Shown here: piece by piece, positions 4,823 through 64,000 of the stretch | How positions within the stretch are numbered: the first letter of the stretch is position 1 | How the letters are laid out: each line of letters opens with the position of its first letter | Source of the DNA: a virus | DNA: 64,000 nt | Reading direction: 5' to 3' (one strand) | IMG/VR virus record: IMGVR_UViG_3300009503_000030 | Location: 6,542 to 70,541 of that record | Made by a program: the position numbers and the translations under genes | Notes under the pieces: model-generated | Seen by the model: only the letters and a program-made list of their open reading frames with translations | Databases searched by the model: none | What the model was told of the DNA's origin: nothing

Positions 4823-5115
4823 CGGTGCCTCCGTGTACGCGCGCGGAGCCGCGCAGCGCAACTGGACCTGCGGTCCTGCATCCGGCCAGGTCCAGGGGCG
4901 AAGAGGTCCTGGATCGGGACGCCAAGCGCGGAGGCAAGAGCGCACAGATGGTCCCCTCGTGGGACATGCTGTTCGTTCTCCCAGAGGCCGACGATGCTCG
5001 TGCTGAGCGAATGGCCGAGAAGGGCGCCGATGCTCTCTGCGAGACGTTGGCGCGTGAGTCCGCGGGCTTCGCGTGCCGCCGCGATCCGGAACCCGCAGAG
5101 GTGGTCTGTGGTCAT
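4819..5115 (-). CDS. XRE-family HTH regulator
   Basis: RIAAAREARGLTRQRLAE...WEN...P...LASALGV. Confidence 0.88.
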   Translation of the reverse strand: MTTDHLCGFRIAAAREARGLTRQRLAESIGALLGHSLSTSIVGLWENEQHVPRGDHLCALASALGVPIQDLFAPGPGRMQDRRSSCAARLRARTRRHR

Positions 5116-7820: not shown

Positions 7821-8332
7821 AGGTCGGCGGAGTGTACTACGCCGAGGTGTCGCGGCGCACGGCACGTGTCCAGATCGTGCGTGTATCGCCCTACGGGGGA
7901 TGGGACGCGCGGAACCTGGACACAGGCCGCATGGTCTACTTCCACACGGGACGGCGCATCCACCGTCCCGTCGAGGGGAGGTGCCAGATGTTGAAATACG
8001 TCGTTGAACGCGGCTCCGGCGGTGTCGGGGCCTACGTCGAGGACGGTGCGCGGCGGCTGCCGCTCGACCCGCGCCTAGACTTGGCAGACCACTCGCCGAC
8101 CGGATACGGGTACGGATACGGCGGGTCGGGTCCGGCGCAACTGGCGCTCGCGATCCTCGCGGACGCCCTGCGGCGGGCCTACGGTTCGCGTCGGCGGAGG
8201 GCCGCGGACAAGGCAGCCTTGGACCTGTACCTGTGGTTCAAATGGGACGTAATCGCGGTGCAGACCGCGCTGCGATGGGAGATCACGCACGAGGACGTGA
8301 TGCAGTGGGTGATCTCGCACAGTTGCGACTGA
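7802..8332 (+). CDS. DUF6166-like protein (possible second start at 7988)
   Basis: HSPTGYGYGYGGSGPAQLALAIL; RBS before both 7802 and 7988. Confidence 0.7.
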   Translation: MRKKDVKVGGVYYAEVSRRTARVQIVRVSPYGGWDARNLDTGRMVYFHTGRRIHRPVEGRCQMLKYVVERGSGGVGAYVEDGARRLPLDPRLDLADHSPTGYGYGYGGSGPAQLALAILADALRRAYGSRRRRAADKAALDLYLWFKWDVIAVQTALRWEITHEDVMQWVISHSCD

Positions 8333-8376
8333 CAAGGCGATCCGCGCCGCGAAGCGCGGACCAAAGGAGGATTGCG

Positions 8377-10233
8377 ATGGCAACCAGGAACTGCCGGTAC
8401 GGACTCTTGGCTCCCGTTGAGGGGCGGGACGAGGTGATGCGCCAACTGCGGGTCGCGCACGAGGTCTACAATACGCTCGTCCAGTACGAGCGGGAGCGGC
8501 GGAAGGCGGTGGCCGATGCGACCCGCGAGACCGACGCGGAGGTCGCGCGGCTGGAGGCGGAGGTCGAGGGGCTGCTGTCCCGACTGGCGGACCTGCGTGC
8601 TGCGATCCAGGCGGCACGGGCCGGCGGTGGGGACAACGCGCGTCTCGCGGAGGCCCAGGCGGAGGCGCGCGAGTGCCGGCGGCTGCTTGGAGAGGCGAAG
8701 GGCGCGCTCCGAGAAACCAAGCGGGTCGCGCGGCAGAACCCCGCGCTGCGGGAGCGACTCGAGGCCATCAAGGCCGAACACCATCGGCGTCAACTCGCGC
8801 TCTACCATGAGGTCGTAGAGGTGGGCAAACGGCTGTACTGGCCCTCGTGGAACGACACGAAGGCCGCCGTCGAGCAGGCGGCGAAGAAGACGAAGAACGG
8901 CGACCTGCGGTTCCGGCGGTGGACCGGCGAGGGGAGCCTGTACACCCAGGTCCAAGGGAAGCAACCGGTCTGCGAGACGGCGACCTCGCGCTGGGTCCGG
9001 ATCGACCCAGTGCCGCCCGAGGCGCATGATCCCGCGACGCCGCGCGGAGAGCGCCGGCGTCTGTGCCGGACCCGCTTCTATCTGCGCATCGGGAGCACGG
9101 GTCCACGGGAGGACCCTGTGTTCGCGGTGTTTCCGATGGTCTATCACAGGCCGCTGCCGGAGGGCGCCGTGATCTGCGGGGCGCGGATCGTCCGGCGCAA
9201 GAACGCGGACCGCGAGTACTGGCAGGCCGTGGTGACGGTGGACCTGCCGGATGAGGCCGCGCAGAAGAGCGGGCCGCGCGTCTGTGCGCTCGACATTGGA
9301 TGGCGGGACCGGAGGCCCGGGGGCTCCGACGAGCCGCCGCCGCTGCGAGTCGCGGCCTGGTACGACGGGGACCGGACGGGCGAGGTGCTCGTGGACCCGT
9401 CGGTCTTCGAGCGATGTGCGAAGGCGGACGCGATCCGGAGCACGCGGGACCGGATGCTCGATGACCTGCGGGCGTGGCTCTGCGAGGCGCGCAAGGACCT
9501 TCCCGAGCACTTGGCGGAGGCGCTCGCGGGCTGTGGTCTGTGGCGGGCCGCGGGGAAGTTCGCGCGGCTGCGCGGGCTTCTGAGTTCCGGCGATGTGCCG
9601 GCGGAAGTGCGAGACCGGTTCCTCGCGTGGTATCACCGCGACCGGCACCTTTGGCAATACGAGCACGGCATGAGGTTGAACGCGATCCGCGACCGCGACA
9701 ACGCCTATCGGATCGCGGCGAAGCGGTTCGCCCAGGAGTACGACGTGCTGATCGTCGAGGCGACGGGCACGCCGCAGAAGGAGCGGGACCCGAAGGCGCC
9801 GGCGGCGATGGACCTGCGGCCCTTGATCAAGGAGCCGGACCCCGAGGACGCGCCGCCGCGAGACCAGCAGCGCGAAAGGAAAGAGAACAAGGCGCACCAC
9901 CAGCGGTTCATCGCGGCGGCAGGGACGTTCAGGCGCTACCTGTTGGAAGCCGCGGCCAAGTACGGGACGCGCGTGGTGATGGTTCCGTGCGAGCAGACGA
10001 CGTTGGAGTGCTGGGTCTGCGGGGCGAAGTACGAGTTCGACCGGTGGCCGCTGATGCACGAGTGCGAGTCCTGCGGTACGACCTGGGACCAAGACCAGAA
10101 CGCCGCGCGGAACCTGTTTGCGAGGGGCGCTGTGGCGGCGAAAGGGCCAGGGCCGCTCGAAGTGCAAGGAAAACCGCGACTTCCGCGATGGCATAAGCGC
10201 CACAAAGCGTACCGCGAGGGCGGGGCGGGGTGA
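8377..10233 (+). CDS. cas12m: Type V CRISPR effector, Cas12m (V-M/V-U1)-like, 618 aa
   Basis: YGLLAP, QLRVAH, coiled-coil REC region, LYWPSWN, LRFRRWTGEG, HRPLP, RuvC ALDIGWR / LIVE / DQDQNAARN, Zn finger CWVC...CESC; directly upstream of the array. Confidence 0.88.
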   Translation: MATRNCRYGLLAPVEGRDEVMRQLRVAHEVYNTLVQYERERRKAVADATRETDAEVARLEAEVEGLLSRLADLRAAIQAARAGGGDNARLAEAQAEARECRRLLGEAKGALRETKRVARQNPALRERLEAIKAEHHRRQLALYHEVVEVGKRLYWPSWNDTKAAVEQAAKKTKNGDLRFRRWTGEGSLYTQVQGKQPVCETATSRWVRIDPVPPEAHDPATPRGERRRLCRTRFYLRIGSTGPREDPVFAVFPMVYHRPLPEGAVICGARIVRRKNADREYWQAVVTVDLPDEAAQKSGPRVCALDIGWRDRRPGGSDEPPPLRVAAWYDGDRTGEVLVDPSVFERCAKADAIRSTRDRMLDDLRAWLCEARKDLPEHLAEALAGCGLWRAAGKFARLRGLLSSGDVPAEVRDRFLAWYHRDRHLWQYEHGMRLNAIRDRDNAYRIAAKRFAQEYDVLIVEATGTPQKERDPKAPAAMDLRPLIKEPDPEDAPPRDQQRERKENKAHHQRFIAAAGTFRRYLLEAAAKYGTRVVMVPCEQTTLECWVCGAKYEFDRWPLMHECESCGTTWDQDQNAARNLFARGAVAAKGPGPLEVQGKPRLPRWHKRHKAYREGGAG

Positions 10234-10289
10234 ACCGCTCGAAAAGCGGGACGTAGGTCATTGAAAACATTATCTGTGCTGCGGGTGCT
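10234..10289 (+). promoter_or_regulatory. CRISPR leader with small hairpin and IHF-like site
   Basis: CCGCT-CGAAA-AGCGG hairpin; TAGGTCATTGAAA at 10254-10266 resembles the reverse IHF consensus. Confidence 0.45.
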
Positions 10290-11027
10290 GTGGAAAGGGT
10301 ATCTCTGGACCTTACAATCAGAGACAAAAAGCGCAAGTGAAACGCGCCCTCGACCGGCTGCGGGTGGAAAGGGTATCTCTGGACCTTACAATCAGAGACT
10401 CCGGCGACCGCCAGGATCGGGTACGGGTGCGGGCCGAGTGGAAAGGGTATCTCTGGACCTTACAATCAGAGACTCGAGTGCACCCGACGGCCCCGGACCC
10501 GGTACACCCGCGTGGAAAGGGTATCTCTGGACCTTACAATCAGAGACCTCGCGGTCGGACGGCTACACCCCTGGCTACACCCCGTGGAAAGGGTATCTCT
10601 GGACCTTACAATCAGAGACCCGGACTGGCTCTCCGACGCGCTCTGTGCGCTCGCGAGTGGAAAGGGTATCTCTGGACCTTACAATCAGAGACCGGCGCGA
10701 GCCGCACAACGGACACCCCGCCCCCCGTCGCAAGGGTATCTCGACACCTTCGAAGTCGAGACCGAGTGCCCCGGACCCCGTGCACGTGCGGCAAAGGTAT
10801 CTCGACACCTTGGGAGTCGAGACACGCACCGGCACCGGCGCCGCGTCCGGACGCGAGAGTGGCAAAGGTATCTCGGCACCTTTGAAGTCGAGACGGGGTA
10901 GGTCGCGCCGCACACGCCGCACCGCAGCCGCATGGAAAGGGCATCTCGACGCCTTTGAAGACGAGACATGGTGGCGGCGCATCCAGCCTAGGTTGAAAGG
11001 GCATCTCGACGCCTGTGAGGTCGAGAC
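10290..11027 (+). CRISPR. CRISPR array, 11 repeats of 36 bp and 10 spacers of 24-38 bp
   Basis: Six identical GTGGAAAGGGTATCTCTGGACCTTACAATCAGAGAC at 10290, 10364, 10438, 10512, 10584, 10657, then five variant repeats at 10727, 10788, 10859, 10932, 10992. Confidence 0.98.
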
Positions 11028-11063
11028 GAAGTCGAGACGAATCGGTCGTGCGCGACACGCGGA

Positions 11064-11678
11064 TCAGCGCCGTGGATCGGGCCGTAGCAACTCCGTGCCA
11101 TCCGGAAGGGTGATCGCAAGATTGCCATCTGCACGCTTGCGCCACTCCAACTCCTCGACCCGCGCCCGTACCTCTCCCTCCCCAGGGCCGACCACCAGAT
11201 AGACGCTGTCAACCGGACGACCACGGTGGTGCTGGACCAACAGCGTGCCTGGTGGGAGAGGCCCAGTGATCGTGACACGACGTGTTGATGCGTTGTACGC
11301 ATTGAAAGCGGGCATACGCTCATCGCCGAAGTAGGACCAGGAACTCGCTCCAGGCCGCCAGGCCATCCGATACCACTCAGGGCCGTTCCCCTTTGCATTC
11401 TGGTCTCGCACCGCCGCGCGAATCGAGTAGGTGTGCTCGTCTGGTGGTACGCGGCCTTCCCGCGCGTACTGCGTCGCGAGGGTCAATGGGTCGGGCTTCT
11501 GCGGTGCCGGTGCGGGCTCAGGGGGCGGCTCCTCTGGCTGGACAATCTCTTCGCGCATCGGGTGTGGGATGTCGTCGAGCCGCACCCAGTAGGTCCGCGC
11601 AACTCCATCGCGCCCGACGATCTTGACCGGTACGAGACCAGGGCCAGGCCCGGCGTGAAAGGCTTTCTGCGTGTCCAT
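11064..11678 (-). CDS. hypothetical protein with GLVPV..YWV motif, paralogue of 59606-60277
   Basis: AAGGAGGT RBS; LPPGTL and LPD.T shared with the paralogue. Confidence 0.72.
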   Translation of the reverse strand: MDTQKAFHAGPGPGLVPVKIVGRDGVARTYWVRLDDIPHPMREEIVQPEEPPPEPAPAPQKPDPLTLATQYAREGRVPPDEHTYSIRAAVRDQNAKGNGPEWYRMAWRPGASSWSYFGDERMPAFNAYNASTRRVTITGPLPPGTLLVQHHRGRPVDSVYLVVGPGEGEVRARVEELEWRKRADGNLAITLPDGTELLRPDPRR

Positions 11679-11738
11679 GGCCACCTCCTTCCCAACGTGC
11701 CGCCGTTGCGCAGAGGCAGCGGCACCCATCAGGATAAT

Positions 11739-13379
11739 CTATCGCATGTTCTCTGAGGATGAAAGCCCCAGCAGAAGTTCCTCCACCATGTCCTCGGCGC
11801 TTGCACCAGCGCCATCGAGCAGCCTGTCGGAGAGCTCCTGCTTCGCGATCAAGAGGCTTGCGAGACGCTGGTCAATGGTCCCGTCAATCACCAGGTGGTA
11901 GACGTTCACGGGGTCCGTCTGTCCAAGCCGGTGTATCCGGTCTTCGGCCTGCGTGATGTTTGCCGGAACCCAGTCAAGTTCCGCGAACACGGCGACTCGC
12001 GCGGCGGTCAACGTGAGCCCGACACCTGCCGCGGTAATCGAGCCGATGAAAACGCGGGTTCCGGCGGCTGTCTGAAAACGCTCAACGAGGCCGTCCCGCT
12101 CCTTCTGTGGGGTCTCCCCCGTCAAGACCACGGCCCCGTAGTCCCGTAGCCGTTCTGCCAAGATCGCAATCACGTCCTGATGATGCGCGAAGACCACGAC
12201 CTTCCGCTCGGAGTCGAGGATGTCCGCCACCCACTCCGCGACAACCGGCGCCTTCGCGAGGGCCGTGGTGTGGCGGACGCGGCTGATCTCGGTGAGCGCG
12301 ATACGACGGGCCTCCCGAAGGCGCGCGACCGCCTGGGCGTATGCGGTCGTGTCGTCAGGAGCCGCCTGGACCGCCTCCTGGGAAGGGCATCGCGACGCCT
12401 TGAAGAGCGAGACGTGCAGGGTTCGCAAGCAGAGCCCGTGCTTCTCCCAGAGCACCCGTTCGCAAGACAGGTCCACGGAGTCCGGTGGCGAGAGAATGAC
12501 GAGCGACCGGCGCTTCGGGGGGAGTTGCGACAGCACGTCCCTCTTCAGCCGGCGGATCATGATGGTCTCGCGGAGAATGGATGCGAGTTCCTCGATATTG
12601 GAGGCCCCGTCGGCCCTCCAGATCGAGCGCTGCACGCGGCCCTTCGTCCAGATGGTTTCGGTGTGCCCTGCGCAGTAGCGGACCTCGAACTGATGACGGG
12701 ACCGCCAGCGTCCTGGGTCCAGCGCTTGGAGCGTGGTGTAGAGCTCGGCTGGGCGATTGAGGACTGGGGTCCCCGTCAAGAAGATGCGCCGTGATGCGGC
12801 GTGGACGAGGCCGCGTTGTCCGGCGGACGCCGTGTACCAGCGCCCGTATGCGTTCTTGCGGTAGCGCGGCGGGACGCCGCAGATCGCGCGCGTCTGCTGG
12901 GCGTCGGGGTTCTTCAACCGGTGCGACTCGTCCACAATGAGCAGGTCCCAATGCTGCATGAGCATTGACAGTCGCATTGGATCGCGGACCTGCTCGTAGT
13001 TGGTGATGGCGAGGAGATTGCCGTCGGGCGGCACGGGGCCATCCACGATGACCACATCGAAGGGTCGCACGAGCCAACGGCGCGCCTCGTAGGCCCAGTT
13101 GGTCTTGAGCGTCGCGGGGCAGATTACGAGCACCCGTCGGATCGCGGGGTCCGCGTTGACCAGTCCAAGCGCCTGGATGGTCTTGCCCGTGCCCATCTCG
13201 TCGGCGATCAGAGCGTTTTGTCTCGCAAGACAGAAGGCGATGCCCTCCTCCTGGAAGGGGAGGTAGTGCAACCCGTCGGGAGCGGGGATTGGGGGTCGGG
13301 CGGTGGTGAACGCTGGTTGGGGGGAGAACTTGGGAGGTCCGCCCGACCCCGCGGTGGGTCCAGTGGGGTATCCCATCAT
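11739..13379 (-). CDS. SNF2-family (HARP/SMARCAL1-like) helicase
   Basis: DEMGTGKT, DESH, LTGTP, QAEDRIHRLGQ. Confidence 0.95.
   Translation of the reverse strand: MMGYPTGPTAGSGGPPKFSPQPAFTTARPPIPAPDGLHYLPFQEEGIAFCLARQNALIADEMGTGKTIQALGLVNADPAIRRVLVICPATLKTNWAYEARRWLVRPFDVVIVDGPVPPDGNLLAITNYEQVRDPMRLSMLMQHWDLLIVDESHRLKNPDAQQTRAICGVPPRYRKNAYGRWYTASAGQRGLVHAASRRIFLTGTPVLNRPAELYTTLQALDPGRWRSRHQFEVRYCAGHTETIWTKGRVQRSIWRADGASNIEELASILRETIMIRRLKRDVLSQLPPKRRSLVILSPPDSVDLSCERVLWEKHGLCLRTLHVSLFKASRCPSQEAVQAAPDDTTAYAQAVARLREARRIALTEISRVRHTTALAKAPVVAEWVADILDSERKVVVFAHHQDVIAILAERLRDYGAVVLTGETPQKERDGLVERFQTAAGTRVFIGSITAAGVGLTLTAARVAVFAELDWVPANITQAEDRIHRLGQTDPVNVYHLVIDGTIDQRLASLLIAKQELSDRLLDGAGASAEDMVEELLLGLSSSENMR
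12378..12413 (+). repeat. Solitary CRISPR repeat inside the helicase gene (antisense)
   Basis: CTGGGAAGGGCATCGCGACGCCTTGAAGAGCGAGAC. Confidence 0.8.
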
Positions 13380-13687
13380 CCTCCTTTTCGGCGCGTGATG
13401 CAAGCGCCGTCATCACGATGCGTTCCGACGAGTTCATCGAGGCACACGTCGAGGACATGCGCCAGCAGCACCATGTCGGTGGCCGATGGGACGGTGCGCT
13501 CCGTCTCCCAGTTGGCGATGGTATTGATCGAGACGCGCCGACCGGTGTATTCGGCGAAGGCCGCGGCCAGGTCCTTGCGGCGCCAAGAGCGGGCCTCGCG
13601 ATGGTGGCGGAGAAGCACGCCGCAGAAGGTCTCGACTTTGAAGGCGTCGCGATGCCCTTTCCATTTGGGCCTGTGCATCAGAGACAT
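13376..13687 (-). CDS. XRE-family HTH regulator
   Basis: LRHHREAR...DLA...TIANWE...P...LAHVLDVCLDELVG. Confidence 0.85.
   Translation of the reverse strand: MSLMHRPKWKGHRDAFKVETFCGVLLRHHREARSWRRKDLAAAFAEYTGRRVSINTIANWETERTVPSATDMVLLAHVLDVCLDELVGTHRDDGACITRRKGG
13629..13664 (-). repeat. Solitary CRISPR repeat in the 5' end of the HTH gene (sense)
   Basis: ATGGAAAGGGCATCGCGACGCCTTCAAAGTCGAGAC. Confidence 0.9.
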
Positions 13688-13923
13688 TCGTCGGCCTCCA
13701 ACAGTTCCAACGAGCGTAGCGCCGCGGCCCGTTGTGGCGCGAGTCGCGGGTCGTCCTCGTAGGGTGAGGGACGGTACGGCGGGTGTGGGACGACGGAGAG
13801 GACGGGGCGCAAGGCGTCGAGCACCCGACGCGCCGCCGCGATATCGCGGTCGGACGGTGGTCCAGACAGACGGTCGCCGTACCAGTTGAGGATCACGAGA
13901 TACTCTAGGGCGTCTTGAGTCAT
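13678..13923 (-). CDS. hypothetical protein
   Basis: Coupled to the terminase stop; GAGGTG RBS. Confidence 0.55.
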   Translation of the reverse strand: MTQDALEYLVILNWYGDRLSGPPSDRDIAAARRVLDALRPVLSVVPHPPYRPSPYEDDPRLAPQRAAALRSLELLEADECL

Positions 13924-15869
13924 CAGTACACCTCTGCGACTTCATCAAAATCGCTGAGCGCTGGCAACCCGATCTGCCGCGCCAGGTCCCAGGTGAGGCG
14001 CGTCGGGAACGGGTCTGTGGATTCATCACGAGTTTCAATGGGGCCGGCGGGGGTGAATGCCGTTCGGTTCTTCAAGAGGTTTCCCGCGAGCCAGAACAGG
14101 GACACGTAGAAGCGCGTGAGGCGGCCCTTGTTTGCGAGACGCCGTTTCCTCTGAATCCAGTCGGTGAACATCGGGTCTCGGATTCGGATGAGGTCCTGGG
14201 CGTAGGCGGTGGCTGCTTGATGGTCGGTCAGAGCGATCTCGTAGTTGTGGGTGACGAGTTTGTTGCCGTACTGCGATGGGTCTGTGATCTGCGACTCGTA
14301 GGCGACGTAAGCCTCTGGATTCGTGTGGGTCACGGGGTCGTAGAGGGTGACGTACACGATGTCGTCCCGCACGTAGACCGTGGACATGTTGGAGCGGCCC
14401 CAGATGGCGACCACGTAGGGTCCGGTGAAGGACTGCGTGTCGAGGGTGGCGGTGTCGGCCTCCAGGAGCGCTGGGCGGAGTTGGGTAGCAACGCGCCAGG
14501 CGATGAGCATGGCGCTCACGAGGTCGGGGAGGTGCTTCTCGCGGGTCGTGGCGATGAGCGCCTCGATGAGGTGGGAGAGACCGCTTGCGTCTCGCGCGAA
14601 GAAGAGCCGACCGGCGTTCATCTGGTGCGCCGCGATCTCGAGGTCCCCCCCGACGCGATACACGGAGGCGCCGGTGTGGATGGGGATCACGGCTGTACCT
14701 GGCAGGACATCGGAGAGGAAGGAGGCCACCATATCCTGGACGGCGTTGTTCTCGACGCCGATGACGAGCCTGGGGAAGCGCTCGGAGAGCGCCTTGAGGC
14801 GTCCGACGAGTCCGCCGGCGGTCCAGTGTCCGGAGGCGACGGACAGGACGAAGCAGCGGAGGTCGGAGATGCCGAGCACGCAGATCGCGGACTCGGTGGG
14901 GCCGTTGGGCGCCGCGAGGTCCACGCCGGCGATCACCATGTCCTCGCCAAGCGGGGTCCAGATGCGGGCGTTGTACGCCTGACCGCGAGACCTGGCGAGG
15001 GCGATGGACTCGTCGGTGAAGACGCGGGTATCCTCTTCTGGGGGGAGGGTCAGGAGGTACTGGCGCGCCCATTCTTGCGGCGTGGTCTTCGACTGGCGCT
15101 CGGCTACGCGCTCAGGGGTCCAGTGGGAGGGCCAGAGGGGCGTGCCGCTGTCATCCACAACAGGGAAGGTGCGGGCGACGTATCCGAGGTCGCGGACGAG
15201 GCGGTGCAGCACGTCATCCTTGTGCCACTTGACGCCGACGGCGATCACCCGCCCGACCTCGGAGAGGCGGGTGAGGTACGAGGCGTTGACGAACTCCCAG
15301 ATTTTGTCTCGCTGGTACGCGGTGGCGGTGTTCTGAGGGGACAGGATGTCGTCGAGAATGAGAAGGTCCACGCGCGCTCCAAGAATCTGGCCGTTGATGC
15401 CGATGGCCTGGTACGATGGGTCCTTTGAGACGATGGGCCGTGTAATCGTGAACACGCCGTCGGACCACGGGTGCGCGGGCCGCACGTTCGGGAAGACGCG
15501 GTGGTAGATTTTGTTCCTCTCGACGGTTTCCTTGATGAACCGCCCGAACTTGATGGCCTGGCGTTCGGTGGCCGAGACCACAACGATCCGGAGGTTCGGG
15601 TTGCGAGACAGGACCCATAGAGGGATGAGCTGGGAGCAGTGGACGCTCTTTCCATGCTCCGGTGCGGCCCAGATCACGCTGTATTTCTGCGTGGAGAGGA
15701 GGCGCAACCATTCGTATTGGAAGGGGGCCACCTCGAGCATCCGACCGCGCTCGTCGCGGAAGCAGGTGGACACCCAGATCGGGTAGGACCGGCGGGCGGC
15801 GGGCAGGATGCGCGATTCGAACACGTCTGGGGCGACGTGTGGGCGGAGTGGGGCCTTGAGGTGGTGCAT
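13923..15869 (-). CDS. terL: Terminase large subunit with C-terminal extension
   Basis: APEHGKS Walker A, GARVDLLILDD Walker B, WHKDD, AGVDLA nuclease motif, VENN. Confidence 0.92.
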   Translation of the reverse strand: MHHLKAPLRPHVAPDVFESRILPAARRSYPIWVSTCFRDERGRMLEVAPFQYEWLRLLSTQKYSVIWAAPEHGKSVHCSQLIPLWVLSRNPNLRIVVVSATERQAIKFGRFIKETVERNKIYHRVFPNVRPAHPWSDGVFTITRPIVSKDPSYQAIGINGQILGARVDLLILDDILSPQNTATAYQRDKIWEFVNASYLTRLSEVGRVIAVGVKWHKDDVLHRLVRDLGYVARTFPVVDDSGTPLWPSHWTPERVAERQSKTTPQEWARQYLLTLPPEEDTRVFTDESIALARSRGQAYNARIWTPLGEDMVIAGVDLAAPNGPTESAICVLGISDLRCFVLSVASGHWTAGGLVGRLKALSERFPRLVIGVENNAVQDMVASFLSDVLPGTAVIPIHTGASVYRVGGDLEIAAHQMNAGRLFFARDASGLSHLIEALIATTREKHLPDLVSAMLIAWRVATQLRPALLEADTATLDTQSFTGPYVVAIWGRSNMSTVYVRDDIVYVTLYDPVTHTNPEAYVAYESQITDPSQYGNKLVTHNYEIALTDHQAATAYAQDLIRIRDPMFTDWIQRKRRLANKGRLTRFYVSLFWLAGNLLKNRTAFTPAGPIETRDESTDPFPTRLTWDLARQIGLPALSDFDEVAEVY

Positions 15870-15963
15870 CGTACCCTCGCTCCCAATATCTTGACACTAC
15901 GGCGGGCGGTGGTCAAGTGGCGGAGACCGGCCACGGACGCGGGGATGCGCGGCGAGATGCGGA

Positions 15964-16204
15964 AAACCGCATGGTTGGGCCAGATGTGCGTGTCCCCAGG
16001 TTGAAAGATGTGTAATGACGCGGACTTACGGAACACGGCCAGTTGCGGGCGAAAAAATCCGATGGTTGAAAAACGCCCATGATATCGCGTGGTTAGAATA
16101 TCGCGAAAAAAAGTTCTTGCGTACCGCGCGACGGGTGCGAAAATGGGGGTGGAAGGCGGCGCTGCCGCCAGACCCCCGCATGGGGCGGGGGTTGAAAAGG
16201 AGGG
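15964..16204 (+). promoter_or_regulatory. Early promoter island 2
   Basis: 34-bp box, A-tract then TTGCGT...GAAAAT, two-hairpin leader, AAAAGGAGG. Confidence 0.7.
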
Positions 16205-16211
16205 AAGGAAG

Positions 16212-16661
16212 ATGCAGTTCTTCGTGAACGACGGATCGGCTGGCATTTATGTGGACGCGGCCAGTCCACGGGAGGCCGCCGAGGAGTACGTCAGGACCTC
16301 GGAGTGGCCGGAGTCGTCGGCCACCTCGTGGGTCCGCGTCAGGGTTTCGCATCGGGTCCCGTCCAGACGCGGTATCACGGAGATCGATGACGGGGTGTAC
16401 TTTGTCCCCATCGATCCGAAGGAGCCGCCATGCACCGAGGGGCCGCTGGACCCCCACGAGTGGGACCTGCGCTCGGAGGTCGGCCACGGGGCCGGCCTCA
16501 TCGTGACGGAGGTCTGCACGCGGTGCGGGGTCCGCCGCGTGACGGATACCTGGGCGACGGACCCTGAGACGGGGCGCCAAGGGCTGCGCTCCGTCCGGTA
16601 CGAGCCGGCGGACGATGCGTCCCTGGCATGGGTCAAACGAGGAGGTGATTCATGTTTCTGA
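16212..16661 (+). CDS. hypothetical Zn-binding protein, paralogue of 6393-6800
   Basis: EAAEEYVRTSEWP, CTRCG, DTWATDPETG. Confidence 0.75.
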   Translation: MQFFVNDGSAGIYVDAASPREAAEEYVRTSEWPESSATSWVRVRVSHRVPSRRGITEIDDGVYFVPIDPKEPPCTEGPLDPHEWDLRSEVGHGAGLIVTEVCTRCGVRRVTDTWATDPETGRQGLRSVRYEPADDASLAWVKRGGDSCF

Positions 16662-56134: not shown

Positions 56135-56591
56135 ACGGGCGGGTGCGTGGAACACGGTGCGCGGCCTCGAGTGGGCGGCGCTCGTCGTGGCGGCGCTGCT
56201 CGGGGTCGGAGAGGCGATCCTGGGACACGGGGCCGGACTCGTTCCTCCGGCGGTGATCGCGGCAGTAGCCGTCGCGGTCAAGGCGCTGCGCGCGGTGCTC
56301 GCGGTGACCGCCGACGTGCGGTCCTCGACGGTGTCCCCGGCGTCCTGGGCTGTCGCCGTGGTCCTCGCGCTCGTCGGGAGTCTCGCGGGCGAGGTGGCTG
56401 GACAGAAGCAGGAGGTGGTCCATGAAATCACCGTCATCGTGGGTCCGGATGTTGCTGGCGGTGCCGTTCGTGATGCTCTTGACGCCGCTGGTGATCCTGG
56501 TCCAGTGGATCATCTGGGCGGCGGGGACCCTGTAGAAAGATATCTCGACACCTTGGAAGGCGAGACATGCTCCGGCGGGTCCGGAGATTGA
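56118..56591 (+). CDS. Membrane protein (about 3 TM, holin candidate)
   Basis: Three hydrophobic segments; GGAGGT RBS. Confidence 0.6.
   Translation: MGRTFERAGAWNTVRGLEWAALVVAALLGVGEAILGHGAGLVPPAVIAAVAVAVKALRAVLAVTADVRSSTVSPASWAVAVVLALVGSLAGEVAGQKQEVVHEITVIVGPDVAGGAVRDALDAAGDPGPVDHLGGGDPVERYLDTLEGETCSGGSGD
56531..56566 (+). repeat. Solitary CRISPR repeat (variant type)
   Basis: TGTAGAAAGATATCTCGACACCTTGGAAGGCGAGAC. Confidence 0.8.
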
Positions 56592-56639: not shown

Positions 56640-56675
56640 CGCATGAGGGTATCTCTGGACCTTCAGACCAGAGAC
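56640..56675 (+). repeat. Solitary CRISPR repeat (major type) 23 nt before the lipoprotein start
   Basis: CGCATGAGGGTATCTCTGGACCTTCAGACCAGAGAC; TCTCTGG/CCAGAGA stem. Confidence 0.87.
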
Positions 56676-59605: not shown

Positions 59606-60277
59606 CTACGACGGGCTCTCCCCCCTGAGACCCCGTGGATTCCGCCGTGCCGCCTCCGCGGCGGCCCTCTGCACCACCTCCGGCTTTGGATACGGCAGCG
59701 TGACAAGCGTCCTGTCGGGCAGCGCCACATCCAGCCCATCCCCAGGGTCCGCAAAATCCACCCCCACGACCCGCGCCATCCCGCCAGCGTCTCGCGGTGG
59801 AACCATCATCTGGACCTTCTTCACCTTCCCATCAGACCCAAGGTCCGCGATCAACGTGCCTGGCGGCAACGCCGTCAGCGTGCCGTGATACCCCCTCCCA
59901 GCCAGCCTCTGCGGCTCCCGCCAGTTCAACCGCCCAGGGTAGAACACGACCCGCAGCGACCCGTCCTCTGCCTCCGCATGGACCGTGTAGGTGTCCCCGT
60001 CTAACGGCAGCCGCTTCCTACCCGTGAAGTAGTCACACGCCGCCCGCTCCTCCCGCGTCAACCGTGGTATCTCCGCGCGACTCGCGTACCCGACACCAGG
60101 CGCCCCAGCACGCACCCACACCCGCTTCTGGTACGGCGCCCCACGCGACGGATGCACCGTCTGAATCACTGGCACCAACCCAGGACGCCCAGCAATCACG
60201 CCACTGTCTCGACTTTCAAGGCGCCGAGATGTCCCTTTCATCCGGAGCGCGGACACGAAGTACAATGGCCTGCTCAT
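59606..60277 (-). CDS. hypothetical protein with GLVPV..WV motif, paralogue of 11064-11678
   Basis: GGAGGTG RBS; LPPGTL, LPD.T. Confidence 0.65.
   Translation of the reverse strand: MSRPLYFVSALRMKGTSRRLESRDSGVIAGRPGLVPVIQTVHPSRGAPYQKRVWVRAGAPGVGYASRAEIPRLTREERAACDYFTGRKRLPLDGDTYTVHAEAEDGSLRVVFYPGRLNWREPQRLAGRGYHGTLTALPPGTLIADLGSDGKVKKVQMMVPPRDAGGMARVVGVDFADPGDGLDVALPDRTLVTLPYPKPEVVQRAAAEAARRNPRGLRGESPS
60206..60241 (-). repeat. Solitary CRISPR repeat as codons 13-24 of the gene (sense)
   Basis: ATGAAAGGGACATCTCGGCGCCTTGAAAGTCGAGAC. Confidence 0.87.
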
Positions 60278-63335: not shown

Positions 63336-63516
63336 CTCCACAACGGGTCGGGTGCCGGCTTGGCCAGCCGCCAACCTGATCCAGGGAGCAGAGGCTCCCT
63401 CGTGGCAGGTAGGCCCCCCACCGAGGCGCAAGCCTCGACCCCCACAGCCTGCCACCTGGGCGCCAAAGGCCCGGCCCGCCACTCTCATGTGGGGGTCTGC
63501 GGCCATGCCGCGCCTC

Positions 63517-63550
63517 GTGGAAAGGGCATCTCGACCTTCGCGGTCGAGAC
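63517..63550 (+). repeat. Solitary CRISPR repeat (34 bp) directly before the RBS of the replication gene
   Basis: GTGGAAAGGGCATCTCGACCTTCGCGGTCGAGAC then GAAGAAAGGAGAAAGCC-ATG. Confidence 0.9.
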
Positions 63551-63567
63551 GAAGAAAGGAGAAAGCC

Positions 63568-64000
63568 ATGATCACACCCGATTTCCGTGTCTCCGCCGAC
63601 TTCGTCACCCACTGGAAGACCACCGCGCTCCGCAACGCCTGCGGCGATGCCGGCGTCTTCTCCCTCCTCTGCCTCTGGTCCTACGCCACATGCAACCGAC
63701 CAGATGGTTGTCTCGCTGGTCTCTCCGATGACGACATCGAGCACATCGCCCGATGGTCAGGGCCACGCGGTCTCCTCGTCAACACGCTCATCCAACTCCG
63801 CTTCCTCGACCGAGACCCAAACAACACACTCATCATCCACGAGTGGTCCGAGCGCCAACCATTCATTCAGAAACTATACGCCGCGCGCGCAAGAGGCACT
63901 GTATGCAAATCCGAACATCGCCGCGGTATGCACCGAACGCTAAAATATACCGCCCCCCCTGGGACTCCGCCCCCCACACCCCCCACCTCTTCTACCCCCC
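63568..64000 (+). CDS. Phage replication initiator/replisome-organiser-like protein, runs off window edge
   Basis: Manual translation: F.TH.KT..L, LL.LWSYA, PDG, IE.IA.W.G, L....FLD, IHEW.E.Q; open to the end of the window. Confidence 0.7.
   Translation, partial: MITPDFRVSADFVTHWKTTALRNACGDAGVFSLLCLWSYATCNRPDGCLAGLSDDDIEHIARWSGPRGLLVNTLIQLRFLDRDPNNTLIIHEWSERQPFIQKLYAARARGTVCKSEHRRGMHRTLKYTAPPGTPPPTPPTSSTP

What the first reader, a model, noticed from the sequence alone, without database searches (positions are those of the whole stretch)
13629..13664. CRISPR repeat translated as part of an HTH regulator N-terminus
Seen: the repeat encodes WKGHRDAFKVET at codons 9-20 of an XRE regulator. The repeat is 36 nt and the major type has no stop in any forward frame, so in-frame tolerance is possible. 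Inference: processing here would remove the start of the regulator/helicase mRNA, placing a transcription factor under Cas control.
Basis: partly seen in the sequence, partly recalled or inferred. Interest (0 to 1): 0.7.

Follow-up and report, generated by a model that had tools for sequence, protein, structure and literature searches.

The report
Cas12m repeat inside phage regulator gene
A hot-spring phage that carries its own DNA-binding CRISPR protein (Cas12m) has one extra copy of that protein's RNA handle written in frame into the first 20 codons of a small regulator gene, which could let the CRISPR protein cut or block that message, although no RNA data show this yet.

Summary
Window 13629-13664 (- strand) is a real solitary copy of the phage's own type V-M (Cas12m) CRISPR repeat. 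It differs at 4 of 36 bases from array repeat 10932. It scores 48.2 bits on a repeat model, against 45.5-51.9 for the array repeats, and keeps 11 of 12 pairs of the pseudoknot fold. It lies sense-oriented in an XRE HTH gene. The best-supported start is ATG 13687, which has GGAGG 7 nt upstream. The repeat then covers the last base of codon 8 to the second base of codon 20.

The 12 residues sit in an unstructured N-terminal tail before the HTH domain (Pfam aa 23-82; AlphaFold coil, pLDDT 59-70). They are a tolerated extension, not an insertion into the fold.

The copy is one of at least 10 solitary repeats in this 70.5-kb phage, and 7 of the 10 lie within 40 nt of an SD-preceded start codon.

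My best reading (about 0.45) is a cis-acting Cas12m handle that punctuates the TerL-gp81-HTH-SNF2 message. A tolerated relic is the main rival (about 0.3).

No RNA data and no relative carrying this gene were found, so cleavage is inferred from published Cas12m biochemistry only.

The scan noted such solitary copies before, in this genome (e1-6179503, e1-6179504) and in a marine Cas12m phage (e1-3508183).

The parts
13629..13664 (-). Solitary repeat unit (SRU): a variant-type copy of the phage's Cas12m CRISPR repeat, in frame in the HTH gene (last base of codon 8 to second base of codon 20).
   Evidence: 48.2 bits; 11 of 12 pairs; only G15.A33 is unpaired
13376..13687 (-). XRE-family HTH gene, 103 aa plus stop. 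Residues 1-22 form an unstructured tail; the HTH domain spans 23-87.
   Evidence: Pfam HTH_31 9.4e-08 (aa 23-82) and HTH_3 6.7e-07; AlphaFold2 helices 23-32, 37-48, 54-61, 69-78 and 83-87 at pLDDT 95-98, tail at 70 and 59
13695..13699 (-). Shine-Dalgarno GGAGG, 7 nt before ATG 13687.
   Evidence: 27 of 56 crude gene starts have such an SD against 389 of 5000 random positions
13609..13628 (-). The 20 nt that occupy the guide (spacer) position 3' of the repeat. They are HTH codons 20-27 and include GTG 13618.
13678..13923 (-). 81-aa ORF of unknown function. Its stop overlaps the HTH start (ATGTCTCTGA).
   Evidence: no family; weak lead only
13923..15869 (-). Terminase large subunit, first gene of the co-directional block. 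Its stop overlaps the start of the 81-aa ORF.
   Evidence: phrog_38 E 4.2e-67
11739..13379 (-). SNF2-family helicase. Its ATG 13379 overlaps the HTH stop (ATGA).
   Evidence: Pfam SNF2-rel_dom 3.5e-31 and Helicase_C 3.1e-15; phrog_62 2.3e-105
12378..12413 (+). Sister SRU, antisense to the helicase gene. It shares the 17-mer GGGCATCGCGACGCCTT and the G15.A33 mismatch, is more decayed (9 of 12 pairs), and codes VSLFKASRCPSQ in the helicase linker.
   Evidence: (41.8 bits)
8233..10233 (+). cas12m. The ORF is open from 8233; the collection's gene call is 598 aa, which would start near 8437.
10290..11027 (+). CRISPR array: six identical major-type repeats followed by five variant repeats.
9767..9780 (-). 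A 14-nt match to the first 14 nt of the guide-position sequence, inside cas12m on the antisense strand with a CTC 5' flank. Speculative and not significant.

Best explanation
The 36 nt are a solitary, sense-oriented copy of the phage's own type V-M CRISPR repeat, placed 24 nt inside the HTH cistron of a tightly overlapping TerL-gp81-HTH-SNF2 gene block. Read as protein, it contributes 12 residues to a disordered N-terminal tail and is a passenger. Read as RNA, it can form the Cas12m handle: a pseudoknot of two helices ending in ...GAGAC. I think it most likely works in cis on the message. Cas12m made by the phage binds the handle and, as it does with array repeats, cuts within or just upstream of it. 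That would separate the SD and AUG of the HTH gene, and the upstream TerL-gp81 RNA, from the HTH-SNF2 body. It would leave Cas12m sitting on codons 21-27, which include the only downstream in-frame GTG. The expected result is less HTH regulator when Cas12m is abundant. Shown: the identity of the repeat, its fold potential, its orientation, its frame, the best-supported start, its position outside the HTH fold, and the enrichment of the phage's solitary copies at cistron starts. Inferred: transcription as one message, binding, cutting, and any effect on HTH or SNF2 levels.
For: (1) It is a true repeat copy: 4 of 36 mismatches to array repeat 10932, and 48.2 bits against 45.5-51.9 for array repeats. 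(2) Fold: across 15 copies, two helices (columns 7-11 with 20-24, and 13-19 with 29-35) pair in 91% of cells against 24-48% when the partner is slid. Five pairs change on both sides, for example 11-20 UA:9/CG:5 and 17-31 GC:11/UA:3. In 0 of 500 shuffles was the covariation score reached. This copy keeps 11 of 12 pairs, as do array repeats 10932 and 10992. The layout matches the pseudoknot-plus-stem scaffold and the base-read terminal C(-1) of Cas12m2 (PMC10442227 section 7). (3) Cas12m enzymes cut pre-crRNA upstream of or within the repeat; for MsCas12m the cut depends on Mg2+ and on the protein. (4) The copy is sense to a gene block without intergenic room: the stops and starts of TerL/gp81, gp81/HTH and HTH/SNF2 overlap. 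There is no sigma-70-like promoter, and the one terminator-like site on the gene (-) strand, at 12801-12787 inside the SNF2 gene, is within the chance expectation (2 sites found on both strands against 2.4 expected). (5) Class behaviour: 5 of 10 solitary copies are followed within 5-23 nt by an SD plus start of an ORF of at least 50 codons (background 5.3%; binomial P 8.6e-5). Two more, this one and 60206, lie 23 and 36 nt after such a start. (6) The two copies inside N-termini are read in different frames (WKGHRDAFKVE here, MKGTSRRLESRD at 60206), so the peptide is not what they share. (7) Both Lys codons inside the repeat are AAA, which makes up 19% of Lys codons in 56 crude genes, and His is CAT (33%). 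The bases therefore follow the repeat, not codon preference. (8) The SRU at 56531 is kept in the mosaic relative G001 while its flanks have diverged.
Against: There are no RNA data: no RNA run was listed. No relative carries this HTH gene, so conservation of this copy cannot be judged. The copy could simply be young. It has an uncompensated G15.A33 mismatch that it shares with the antisense copy at 12378, whereas copy 44401 compensated the same change (G15-C33). The antisense copy sits in a helicase linker where the two closest homologues have a 10-column gap, so copies can land in coding DNA without acting on that message. Translating ribosomes would unfold a handle only 24 nt from the AUG. 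Minimum-free-energy folds of the 101- and 146-nt context do not isolate the handle and are no more stable than shuffles (z 0.00 and 0.99). RNA processing by this particular Cas12m is untested. Of 5 other Cas12m phage contigs scanned whole, 3 have no solitary copy and 2 have one to three, so a handle network is not a general property of Cas12m phages.
Confidence: 0.45

Rival explanations
1. A tolerated relic. A 36-nt repeat unit was copied into the 5' end of the HTH gene by recombination with the array or with another copy. It persists because it adds 12 harmless residues to a disordered tail, and it has no role as RNA.
For: 36 nt is 12 codons, and 54% of 36-mers here lack stops in all forward frames. 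The tail is coil with pLDDT 59-70 and lies outside the Pfam domain. The sister copy at 12378 is antisense, decayed to 9 of 12 pairs, and coincides with a 10-column gap in the two closest helicase homologues. Both share the uncompensated G15.A33 mismatch. Near-identity to array repeat 10932 fits a recent event.
Against: This copy is as well paired as array repeats (11 of 12) and scores with them. It is sense-oriented and sits at a cistron start like 6 other copies. As a class the copies show compensatory changes, and one is kept in a diverged relative.
Confidence: 0.3
2. A Racr-like decoy. The copy is transcribed with the message and soaks up a host Cas12m that uses the same repeat, acting as an RNA anti-CRISPR. 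The small upstream ORF and the HTH gene would then resemble an acr-aca pair.
For: Solitary repeats in phages act as RNA anti-CRISPRs and lie next to acr genes, and one is co-transcribed with an Acr (PMC10651486 passages). The gp81 (81 aa, no family) plus HTH arrangement looks like acr-aca.
Against: The phage carries its own cas12m and an array with the same repeat, which a decoy would also poison. Racrs as described are intergenic small RNAs with their own promoter and are not linked to cas genes. Here the copy is coding, no promoter-like site was found, and gp81 is coupled to the terminase gene. No host array with this repeat was found: 106 single matches in genome contigs, of which the 80 listed have one match each.
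Confidence: 0.08
3. A source of a guide. After processing, the handle plus HTH codons 21-27 forms a crRNA-like RNA that steers Cas12m to a partly matching site. The best candidate is cas12m itself (9767-9780), giving feedback on the effector.
For: The first 14 nt after the repeat match the antisense strand of cas12m, with a C/T-rich 5' flank (CTC). Cas12m PAMs are T- and C-rich and silencing works inside coding regions. Cas12m2 uses a 17-bp duplex. Cr-like RNAs with partial matches autoregulate cas genes in other types (PMC10120712 passages). 13 of the 14 nt are kept in G001 cas12m.
Against: An anchored 14-mer recurs for about 1% of positions in this genome (1360 of 141056), so with 21 guide positions tried one hit is not surprising. 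The site is in the coding region, not at a promoter. The PAM of this enzyme is unknown. None of the other 9 solitary copies showed an anchored match of at least 15 of 18 in cas12m.
Confidence: 0.07
4. A recombination linker. The short conserved repeats at gene borders serve as crossover points for module exchange between related phages, and this copy marks the TerL-gp81 / HTH-SNF2 joint.
For: Homology between this phage and G001 (about 88%) stops exactly at the first base of the solitary copy at 63517, and a different gene follows in G001. G001 is a mosaic of shared and unshared blocks.
Against: This is one junction in one relative. G001 has no copy at that junction. No relative is available for the 13629 region. 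The compensatory stem changes point to selection on RNA, not on DNA identity.
Confidence: 0.07

Closest known systems
Type V-M CRISPR repeat / Cas12m crRNA scaffold (Cas12m2, GoCas12m, MsCas12m; PMC10442227, PMC11013384)
   Same: 36 nt, cognate to a cas12m gene in the same genome, with a pseudoknot-plus-stem layout and a ...AC 3' end. The family's enzymes cut pre-crRNA within or upstream of the repeat.
   Different: It stands alone, 2.6 kb from the array on the other strand, inside a protein-coding gene and read in frame. No next repeat bounds a spacer.
Solitary repeat units acting as RNA anti-CRISPRs (Racr; PMC10651486)
   Same: A single CRISPR repeat copy in a phage genome that keeps the repeat's structure. 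One Racr is co-transcribed with a protein gene.
   Different: Racrs are intergenic, have their own promoter, are not linked to cas genes and match the host's system. The search tool of that study masks ORFs and treats intragenic hits as probable false positives. Here the phage has its own effector and array, and the copy is coding.
Cr-like regulatory RNAs and mini-arrays (tracr-L, CreA-type; PMC10120712, bioRxiv 10.1101/2024.12.27.630466 listing only)
   Same: A repeat-derived RNA reused for gene regulation by the cognate effector, through partial complementarity.
   Different: Those act in trans on promoters through a degenerate spacer and lie in or by cas loci. Here the proposed action is in cis on an mRNA, and the only partial match found is not significant.
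Engineered CRISPR-nuclease sites in mRNAs (Csy4 hairpins; PMC4604432, listing and abstract start only)
   Same: A repeat hairpin placed in a message so that the CRISPR ribonuclease controls its stability and translation.
   Different: That system is man-made. This would be a natural case, with Cas12m rather than Cas6f.
Earlier notes of this scan: e1-6179503 and e1-6179504 (this genome), e1-3508183 (marine Cas12m phage)
   Same: Solitary Cas12m handle copies spread through the transcripts of a phage with its own Cas12m, one of them inside a small ORF.
   Different: Those are AI notes on other copies or other DNA. I re-tested only the copies of this genome.

Membership tests
Type V-M (Cas12m) CRISPR repeat | Sequence likeness to the repeats of an array next to a cas12m gene | tested here: met
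   32 of 36 bases identical to array repeat 10932; 48.2 bits, within the array range; cas12m confirmed
Type V-M (Cas12m) CRISPR repeat | Pseudoknot-plus-stem scaffold with a conserved 3' end (A(-2), C(-1)) | tested here: met
   11 of 12 pairs; the family covaries; the copy ends in GAGAC; layout compared with Cas12m2 section 7
Type V-M (Cas12m) CRISPR repeat | Member of a repeat-spacer array (a next repeat within about 70-75 nt) | tested here: not met
   No other copy within 1.2 kb; the nearest is 12378 on the other strand
Type V-M (Cas12m) CRISPR repeat | Bound and processed by the cognate Cas12m | not testable with these tools
   No RNA run listed. Only family-level biochemistry is available, from papers
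Racr (RNA anti-CRISPR solitary repeat) | Solitary repeat copy on a mobile element | tested here: met
Racr (RNA anti-CRISPR solitary repeat) | Intergenic, expressed as a small RNA from its own promoter | tested here: not met
   Inside a coding gene; 0 promoter-like sites in 11000-16400 (sigma-70 consensus only)
Racr (RNA anti-CRISPR solitary repeat) | Not linked to cas genes on the element; mimics the host's repeat | tested here: not met
   The phage has cas12m and an array. The host and its arrays were not found, so the host half of this feature is untested
Cr-like regulatory RNA (autoregulatory mini-array type) | Degenerate spacer with a partial, PAM-flanked match at a promoter of a cas or other regulated gene | tested here: inconclusive
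   A 14-nt anchored match inside the cas12m coding region with a CTC flank; chance about 1% per guide with 21 tried; the PAM is unknown
XRE-family HTH regulator (the host gene) | HTH_3/HTH_31 domain with a five-helix fold | tested here: met
   Pfam above the gathering scores; five helices at pLDDT 95-98; 61 HMMER hits, nearly all aligning from query residues 16-52 onward

The most novel reading that the evidence does not exclude
Cas12m of this phage doubles as a sequence-specific factor for the phage's own messages. The handle written into the first 20 codons of the HTH gene is a punctuation mark that cuts the regulator/helicase message off the terminase message and silences the regulator. It also turns the 5' end of that message into a crRNA-like guide whose 14-nt seed matches cas12m's own coding region next to a C/T-rich flank, so a transcription-factor mRNA and the CRISPR effector would regulate each other.
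Probability: 0.07. Interest if true: 0.85.

Novelty: new variant of a known kind. Interest (0 to 1): 0.55.

Why it matters
Solitary CRISPR repeats in phages are known as decoys against host immunity, and surveys discard copies inside genes as noise. Here a copy that is as intact as the array's own repeats sits in frame in a regulator gene of a phage that brings its own Cas12m. It is part of a set of copies that cluster at translation starts. If Cas12m acts on these messages, that would be a natural case of a DNA-binding CRISPR effector used for post-transcriptional control of phage genes, which is what engineers do with Csy4 and Cas12a sites. It would also mean that intragenic repeat copies deserve a second look in other elements. 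The test is simple: one protein, one 150-nt RNA and one reporter.

Tried and rejected
Relatives of the locus. Terminase relatives in viral contigs: none confirmed. SNF2 relatives: 9 loci at 29-41% identity; none has this HTH gene upstream (tblastn best E 0.56), and only L015 has an unrelated HTH-like ORF there.

The HTH protein. The word-indexed search found only itself, 1 of 2 candidates. Exhaustive HMMER gave 61 hits, and apart from itself none lies below 1.7e-11. G001, the one relative with cas12m at 88-93% identity, lacks the HTH gene (0 matches at E up to 10) and is a mosaic.

Sequencing runs. No RNA holder was listed. Of the 4 DNA runs, X1 and X2 carry the identical sequence and may be the source. 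X3 has low-depth fragments of a relative: 13460-13614 with 21 differences, and 13258-13456 with 22. No listed piece crosses the repeat, and 151 pieces were not shown. This gives no verdict on presence or absence of the repeat in relatives.

Host search by repeat motif. Genome contigs gave 106 stretches; the 80 listed have one match each and none is an array. Viral contigs gave 16 single matches, and only G001 and a marginal 24-bit hit in L040 fit the model.

Protospacers. The array was searched against phages (no match) and plasmids (best E 0.7). The PAM was therefore not inferred, and I ran no spacer-by-spacer scans.

Other checks. Searching 11000-16000 against the phage collection gave only 67-71% helicase matches. 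Guide-position matches within the genome: only the 14-mer in cas12m, judged not significant. A terminator-like hairpin on the + strand formed by the reverse complement of the repeat (13643-13656) is within chance expectation (2 found, 2.4 expected). Minimum-free-energy folds of single repeats show one helix or the other and are not distinguishable from shuffles; pseudoknots are not modelled there.

Not in print, as far as I searched. Searches (7 papers; 17 papers, 12 listed; 124 papers, 12 listed; 93 papers, 12 listed) were read as listings, plus passages of six papers. None describes a Cas12m repeat inside a coding gene or Cas12m acting on a phage's own mRNAs.
Full report
WHAT IS THERE. The window is bases 6542-70541 of a 70,541-bp virus record with direct terminal repeats. 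I measured a 39-bp terminal repeat and 65.2% G+C. The two runs that hold it in full are hot-spring metagenomes.

On the + strand lie a Cas12-type gene (8233-10233) and a CRISPR array. The gene has a Cas12f1-like TNB domain. Its best solved relatives are Cas12m proteins: 23vw_A at E 1.7e-56 and Cas12m2 8hhl_A at 2.6e-20. The array runs from 10290 to 11027. It holds six identical 36-nt repeats followed by five variant repeats.

The finding's 36 nt (13629-13664, read on the - strand) differ at 4 positions from array repeat 10932 and at 12 from the major type. At up to 3 mismatches the sequence occurs once, against none in 100 shuffles. Its last 21 nt are identical to an array repeat of a related phage record, G001:85-120. 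The sequence observation is confirmed and is far beyond chance.

THE REPEAT AS RNA. I aligned 15 copies: 6 distinct array repeats and 9 solitary copies. I then counted pairs for a two-helix pseudoknot, columns 7-11 with 20-24 and 13-19 with 29-35.
- 91% of cells pair, against 24-48% when the partner columns are slid.
- Five pairs change on both sides: 11-20 UA:9/CG:5, 17-31 GC:11/UA:3, 18-30 AU:4/GC:3/GU:2, 15-33 UA:12/GC:1, and 19-29 CG:9/GC:1/GU:1.
- None of 500 shuffles reaches the observed covariation score (single helix).

The sequences are related copies from one genome, so the shuffle count is not a probability. The slid controls and the double changes are the stronger argument.

This layout agrees with the published Cas12m2 scaffold. 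That scaffold is a pseudoknot stacked on a stem, with a disordered 5' end and a terminal C(-1) read by the protein (PMC10442227, section 7 read in full).

The copy in the HTH gene keeps 11 of 12 pairs. Only G15.A33 is unpaired. That equals array repeats 10932 and 10992. A covariance model built from the 15 copies scores it 48.2 bits, inside the array range of 45.5-51.9. It was part of the training set, so this shows rank, not discovery. The model also found one copy that was not in the training set, just outside the window (L007:4907-4941, 21.1 bits). The next best match scores 15.5 bits.

THE REPEAT AS PROTEIN. The ORF 13376..14038(-) holds three possible starts: ATG 13687, ATG 13678 and GTG 13618.
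- ATG 13687 has GGAGG 7 nt upstream and overlaps the stop of the preceding 81-aa ORF.
- The other two have no SD core within 3-12 nt.
- Such an SD precedes 27 of 56 crude gene starts in this phage, against 389 of 5000 random positions.
- The public gene call (P0001, 100 aa) starts at the second ATG.

With either ATG the repeat is translated. Only GTG 13618, 10 nt after the repeat, would leave it untranslated, and nothing supports that start.

From M1 the repeat codes W9-E19 plus two bases of T20.
- Pfam places the HTH domain at residues 23-82 (HTH_31, 9.4e-08).
- An AlphaFold2 model, built with 15 homologues in the alignment, gives five helices between residues 23 and 87 at pLDDT 95-98. Residues 1-22 have no secondary structure and a block-mean pLDDT of 70 and 59.
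- The exhaustive HMMER search returned 61 proteins. Apart from the protein itself, the best E-value is 1.7e-11, and nearly all best stretches begin at query residues 16-52.

I aligned 15 of the 60 non-self hits. I chose them because they are short (70-146 aa) and have a single matched stretch. Their tails before the conserved F-x-G are 0-13 residues long, against 20 in the query.

The 12 residues are therefore part of an over-long, disordered N-terminal tail. They are not an insertion into the fold.

The absence of stops has little weight, because 54% of all 36-mers of this genome lack stops in all three forward frames.

Both Lys codons inside the repeat are AAA, which makes up 19% of Lys codons in 56 crude genes. 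His is CAT (33%). This is a weak sign that the bases follow the repeat rather than codon preference.

GENE CONTEXT. The - strand carries, in order:
- the terminase large subunit (phrog_38, 4.2e-67);
- an 81-aa ORF without family;
- the HTH gene;
- an SNF2 helicase (phrog_62, 2.3e-105);
- a 221-aa ORF.

The first three junctions are overlaps: TGATG, ATGTCTCTGA and ATGA. The simple scans found no promoter-like site in 11000-16400. They found two terminator-like sites, one on each strand, against 2.4 expected by chance. The one on the gene (- strand) is at 12801-12787 inside the SNF2 gene; the one on the + strand is formed by the reverse complement of the repeat itself.

The repeat is sense to this block, and no non-coding room exists between the cistrons. 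A handle meant to sit at the head of the HTH cistron could only be placed inside coding sequence.

THE OTHER SOLITARY COPIES. The phage has at least 10: 12378+, 13629-, 22541+, 44401-, 52434-, 56531+, 56640+, 60206- and 63517+ in the window, plus L007:4907+.

I defined a start site as ATG/GTG/TTG with an SD core of at least 5 nt lying 3-12 nt upstream, opening an ORF of at least 50 codons.
- 5 of the 10 copies are followed by such a start within 5-23 nt. The background is 5.3% of strand-specific positions (binomial P 8.6e-5).
- Two more, this copy and 60206, lie 23 and 36 nt after such a start.

At 60206 the copy fills codons 13-24 of an ORF that begins at 60277 behind GGAGG. It is read in a different frame, as MKGTSRRLESRD. 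That gene has no family hit, and an overlapping + strand ORF has a RyR-domain hit further on, so this second case is probable rather than certain.

The copy at 12378 is the exception. It is antisense to the helicase gene and keeps only 9 of 12 pairs. Its peptide VSLFKASRCPSQ lies where the two closest helicase homologues (L008 and L010, of 6 aligned) have a 10-column gap, in a length-variable linker. It shares a 17-mer and the G15.A33 mismatch with the HTH copy.

Repeat units can therefore enter coding DNA in either orientation. The sense copy is intact and the antisense copy is worn. With one case of each, this contrast is suggestive only.

RELATIVES. The only close relative of cas12m in IMG/VR is G001 (41.8 kb, 59% complete). 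Its cas12m is 88% identical in DNA and 92-93% in protein. It is a mosaic that lacks the HTH gene.

Two of its joints are informative for the class of copies.
- The copy at 56531 is kept in G001 (14152-14187) while the flanks are poorly alignable.
- The roughly 88% homology upstream of 63517 ends exactly at the first base of that copy, and G001 continues with another gene and no copy.

I also scanned five more distant Cas12m phage contigs whole, ungapped, allowing up to 11 of 36 mismatches to their own repeat. The solitary-copy counts were 0, 1, 0, 0 and 3 candidates (G002-G006). The one in G003 has a compensated stem change. In a further step, 12 of 18 loci had a detectable array and were scanned over about 10 kb each side. 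Only L158, which is the same record as G003, showed a convincing solo.

It is not a general trait of Cas12m phages.

HOW IT MOST LIKELY WORKS. Published work shows three things.
- MsCas12m, from a thermophile, cuts within the repeat in a Mg2+- and protein-dependent way that does not need RuvC (PMC11013384 passages).
- Mature crRNAs are 50-60 nt, with the handle at the 5' end.

Applied here, Cas12m binding to the nascent block message would cut at about codons 8-10 of the HTH gene. The 5' product would keep TerL, gp81 and the HTH SD and AUG. The 3' product would begin with the handle, and Cas12m would cover the next 17-20 nt, including GTG 13618.

HTH synthesis from processed RNA would stop. 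The helicase keeps its own ATG 13379 with AAGGAGG just before it, but would lose any coupling to HTH translation. Even without cutting, a protein-bound pseudoknot 24 nt from the AUG would be a road-block.

All of this is inference. I give it 0.45 because the copy is intact, sense-oriented, placed like most of its sisters, and belongs to a class with structural covariation.

Several points count against it:
- there are no RNA data;
- there is no relative for this locus;
- the stem mismatch is uncompensated and shared with the worn antisense copy;
- the copy may simply be young;
- ribosomes would unfold the handle;
- context folds do not favour the handle (z 0.00 and 0.99).

RIVALS.
- A harmless relic (0.30).
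- A Racr-like decoy (0.08). This is weakened by the phage's own cas12m and array, the coding position and the absence of a promoter-like site.
- A guide source (0.07). The 14 nt after the repeat match the antisense strand of cas12m at 9767-9780 next to CTC. About 1% of positions have such an anchored 14-mer elsewhere in the genome, and I tried 21 guide positions.
- A recombination linker (0.07). This rests on the single junction at 63517.

COMPARISON AND NOVELTY. As a sequence, it is a member of the type V-M repeat family, except that it is not part of an array. It fails two defining features of Racrs: it is not intergenic with its own promoter, and it is linked to cas genes. It does not meet the promoter-targeting feature of cr-like regulators.

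The Racr survey masks ORFs and treats intragenic hits as likely false, so copies like this one would not have been reported. A 2026 preprint calls a myxophage Cas12m the first in a phage (passages), and a 2024 review mentions V-M systems in some prophages (passages). Neither mentions solitary copies.

In four library searches (listings plus passages of six papers) I found no description of a Cas12m repeat inside a gene or of Cas12m acting on phage messages.

I rate it a new variant of a known kind, the solitary repeat unit. Interest is 0.55. The fact is solid and the proposed use would be new, but the function of this one copy is unproven, and the wider set of copies has already been noted in this scan.

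Noticed in passing
L007:4907-4941 (+), genome bases 4907-4941, outside the window: A tenth solitary repeat copy, not used to build the model (21.1 bits, E 0.0065). It is followed after 16 nt, which contain AGGAGG, by an ATG.
   Followed up: partly
window 12378-12413 (+): A solitary copy antisense to the SNF2 helicase gene, read as VSLFKASRCPSQ in the inter-lobe linker where the two closest homologues have a 10-column gap. It keeps 9 of 12 pairs and shares a 17-mer and the G15.A33 mismatch with the HTH copy.
   Followed up: partly
window 60206-60241 (-), ORF from ATG 60277: A probable second translated copy. It fills codons 13-24 (MKGTSRRLESRD, a different frame) of an ORF with GGAGG 9 nt before its ATG. 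The gene has no family, and an overlapping + strand ORF has a RyR-domain hit.
   Followed up: partly
window 63400-63640 vs L024:2362-2600 (G001): About 88% homology with the related phage stops exactly at the first base of the solitary copy at 63517. G001 continues with a different gene and has no copy there, so this is a mosaic joint at a repeat copy.
   Followed up: partly
window 56531-56566 vs L024:14152-14187 (G001, - strand): This solitary copy is kept in the relative while the flanks are poorly alignable. The second copy at 56640 has no counterpart there.
   Followed up: partly
window 9767-9780 (- strand), inside cas12m: The first 14 nt after the HTH repeat copy recur here, next to a CTC flank, in the insertion after the RuvC-II Glu. 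13 of the 14 nt are kept in G001. The match is not significant after multiple testing.
   Followed up: yes
window 10290-11027: The array has two parts: six identical repeats with 34-38-nt spacers, then five diverged repeats with 24-37-nt spacers. The spacer after repeat 7 matches 15 of 18 nt of a stretch of spacer 3 (10485-10502), so the distal half may be an old, decayed duplicate.
   Followed up: no
window 13643-13666 (+): The reverse complement of the HTH repeat copy forms a 5-bp hairpin followed by a T-rich run. This is a terminator-like site facing read-through from the array, but it is within chance expectation.
   Followed up: no
runs X3 and X4 laid on window 10000-16000: Microbial-mat runs hold low-depth fragments of a relative at about 86-97% identity. 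They also hold high-depth (82-85x) contigs that share only about 20 nt of the major repeat, flanked by unrelated DNA, and a loose end at 11608 that looks like another repeat variant. These may be host or sister-phage arrays.
   Followed up: no
G003:C1:38812-38847 (+); G006:C1:1305, 7361, 7800: Other Cas12m phage contigs carry a few solitary copies of their own repeats. The G003 copy has 3 mismatches, two of which compensate each other in the stem. G002, G004 and G005 have none.
   Followed up: partly
window 13678-13923 (-): An 81-aa ORF between the terminase and the HTH gene has no Pfam or PHROG family. The atlas gives only a weak DUF7945/CdiI-like lead (score 0.90). Followed by an HTH gene, it looks superficially like an acr-aca pair.
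   Followed up: partly
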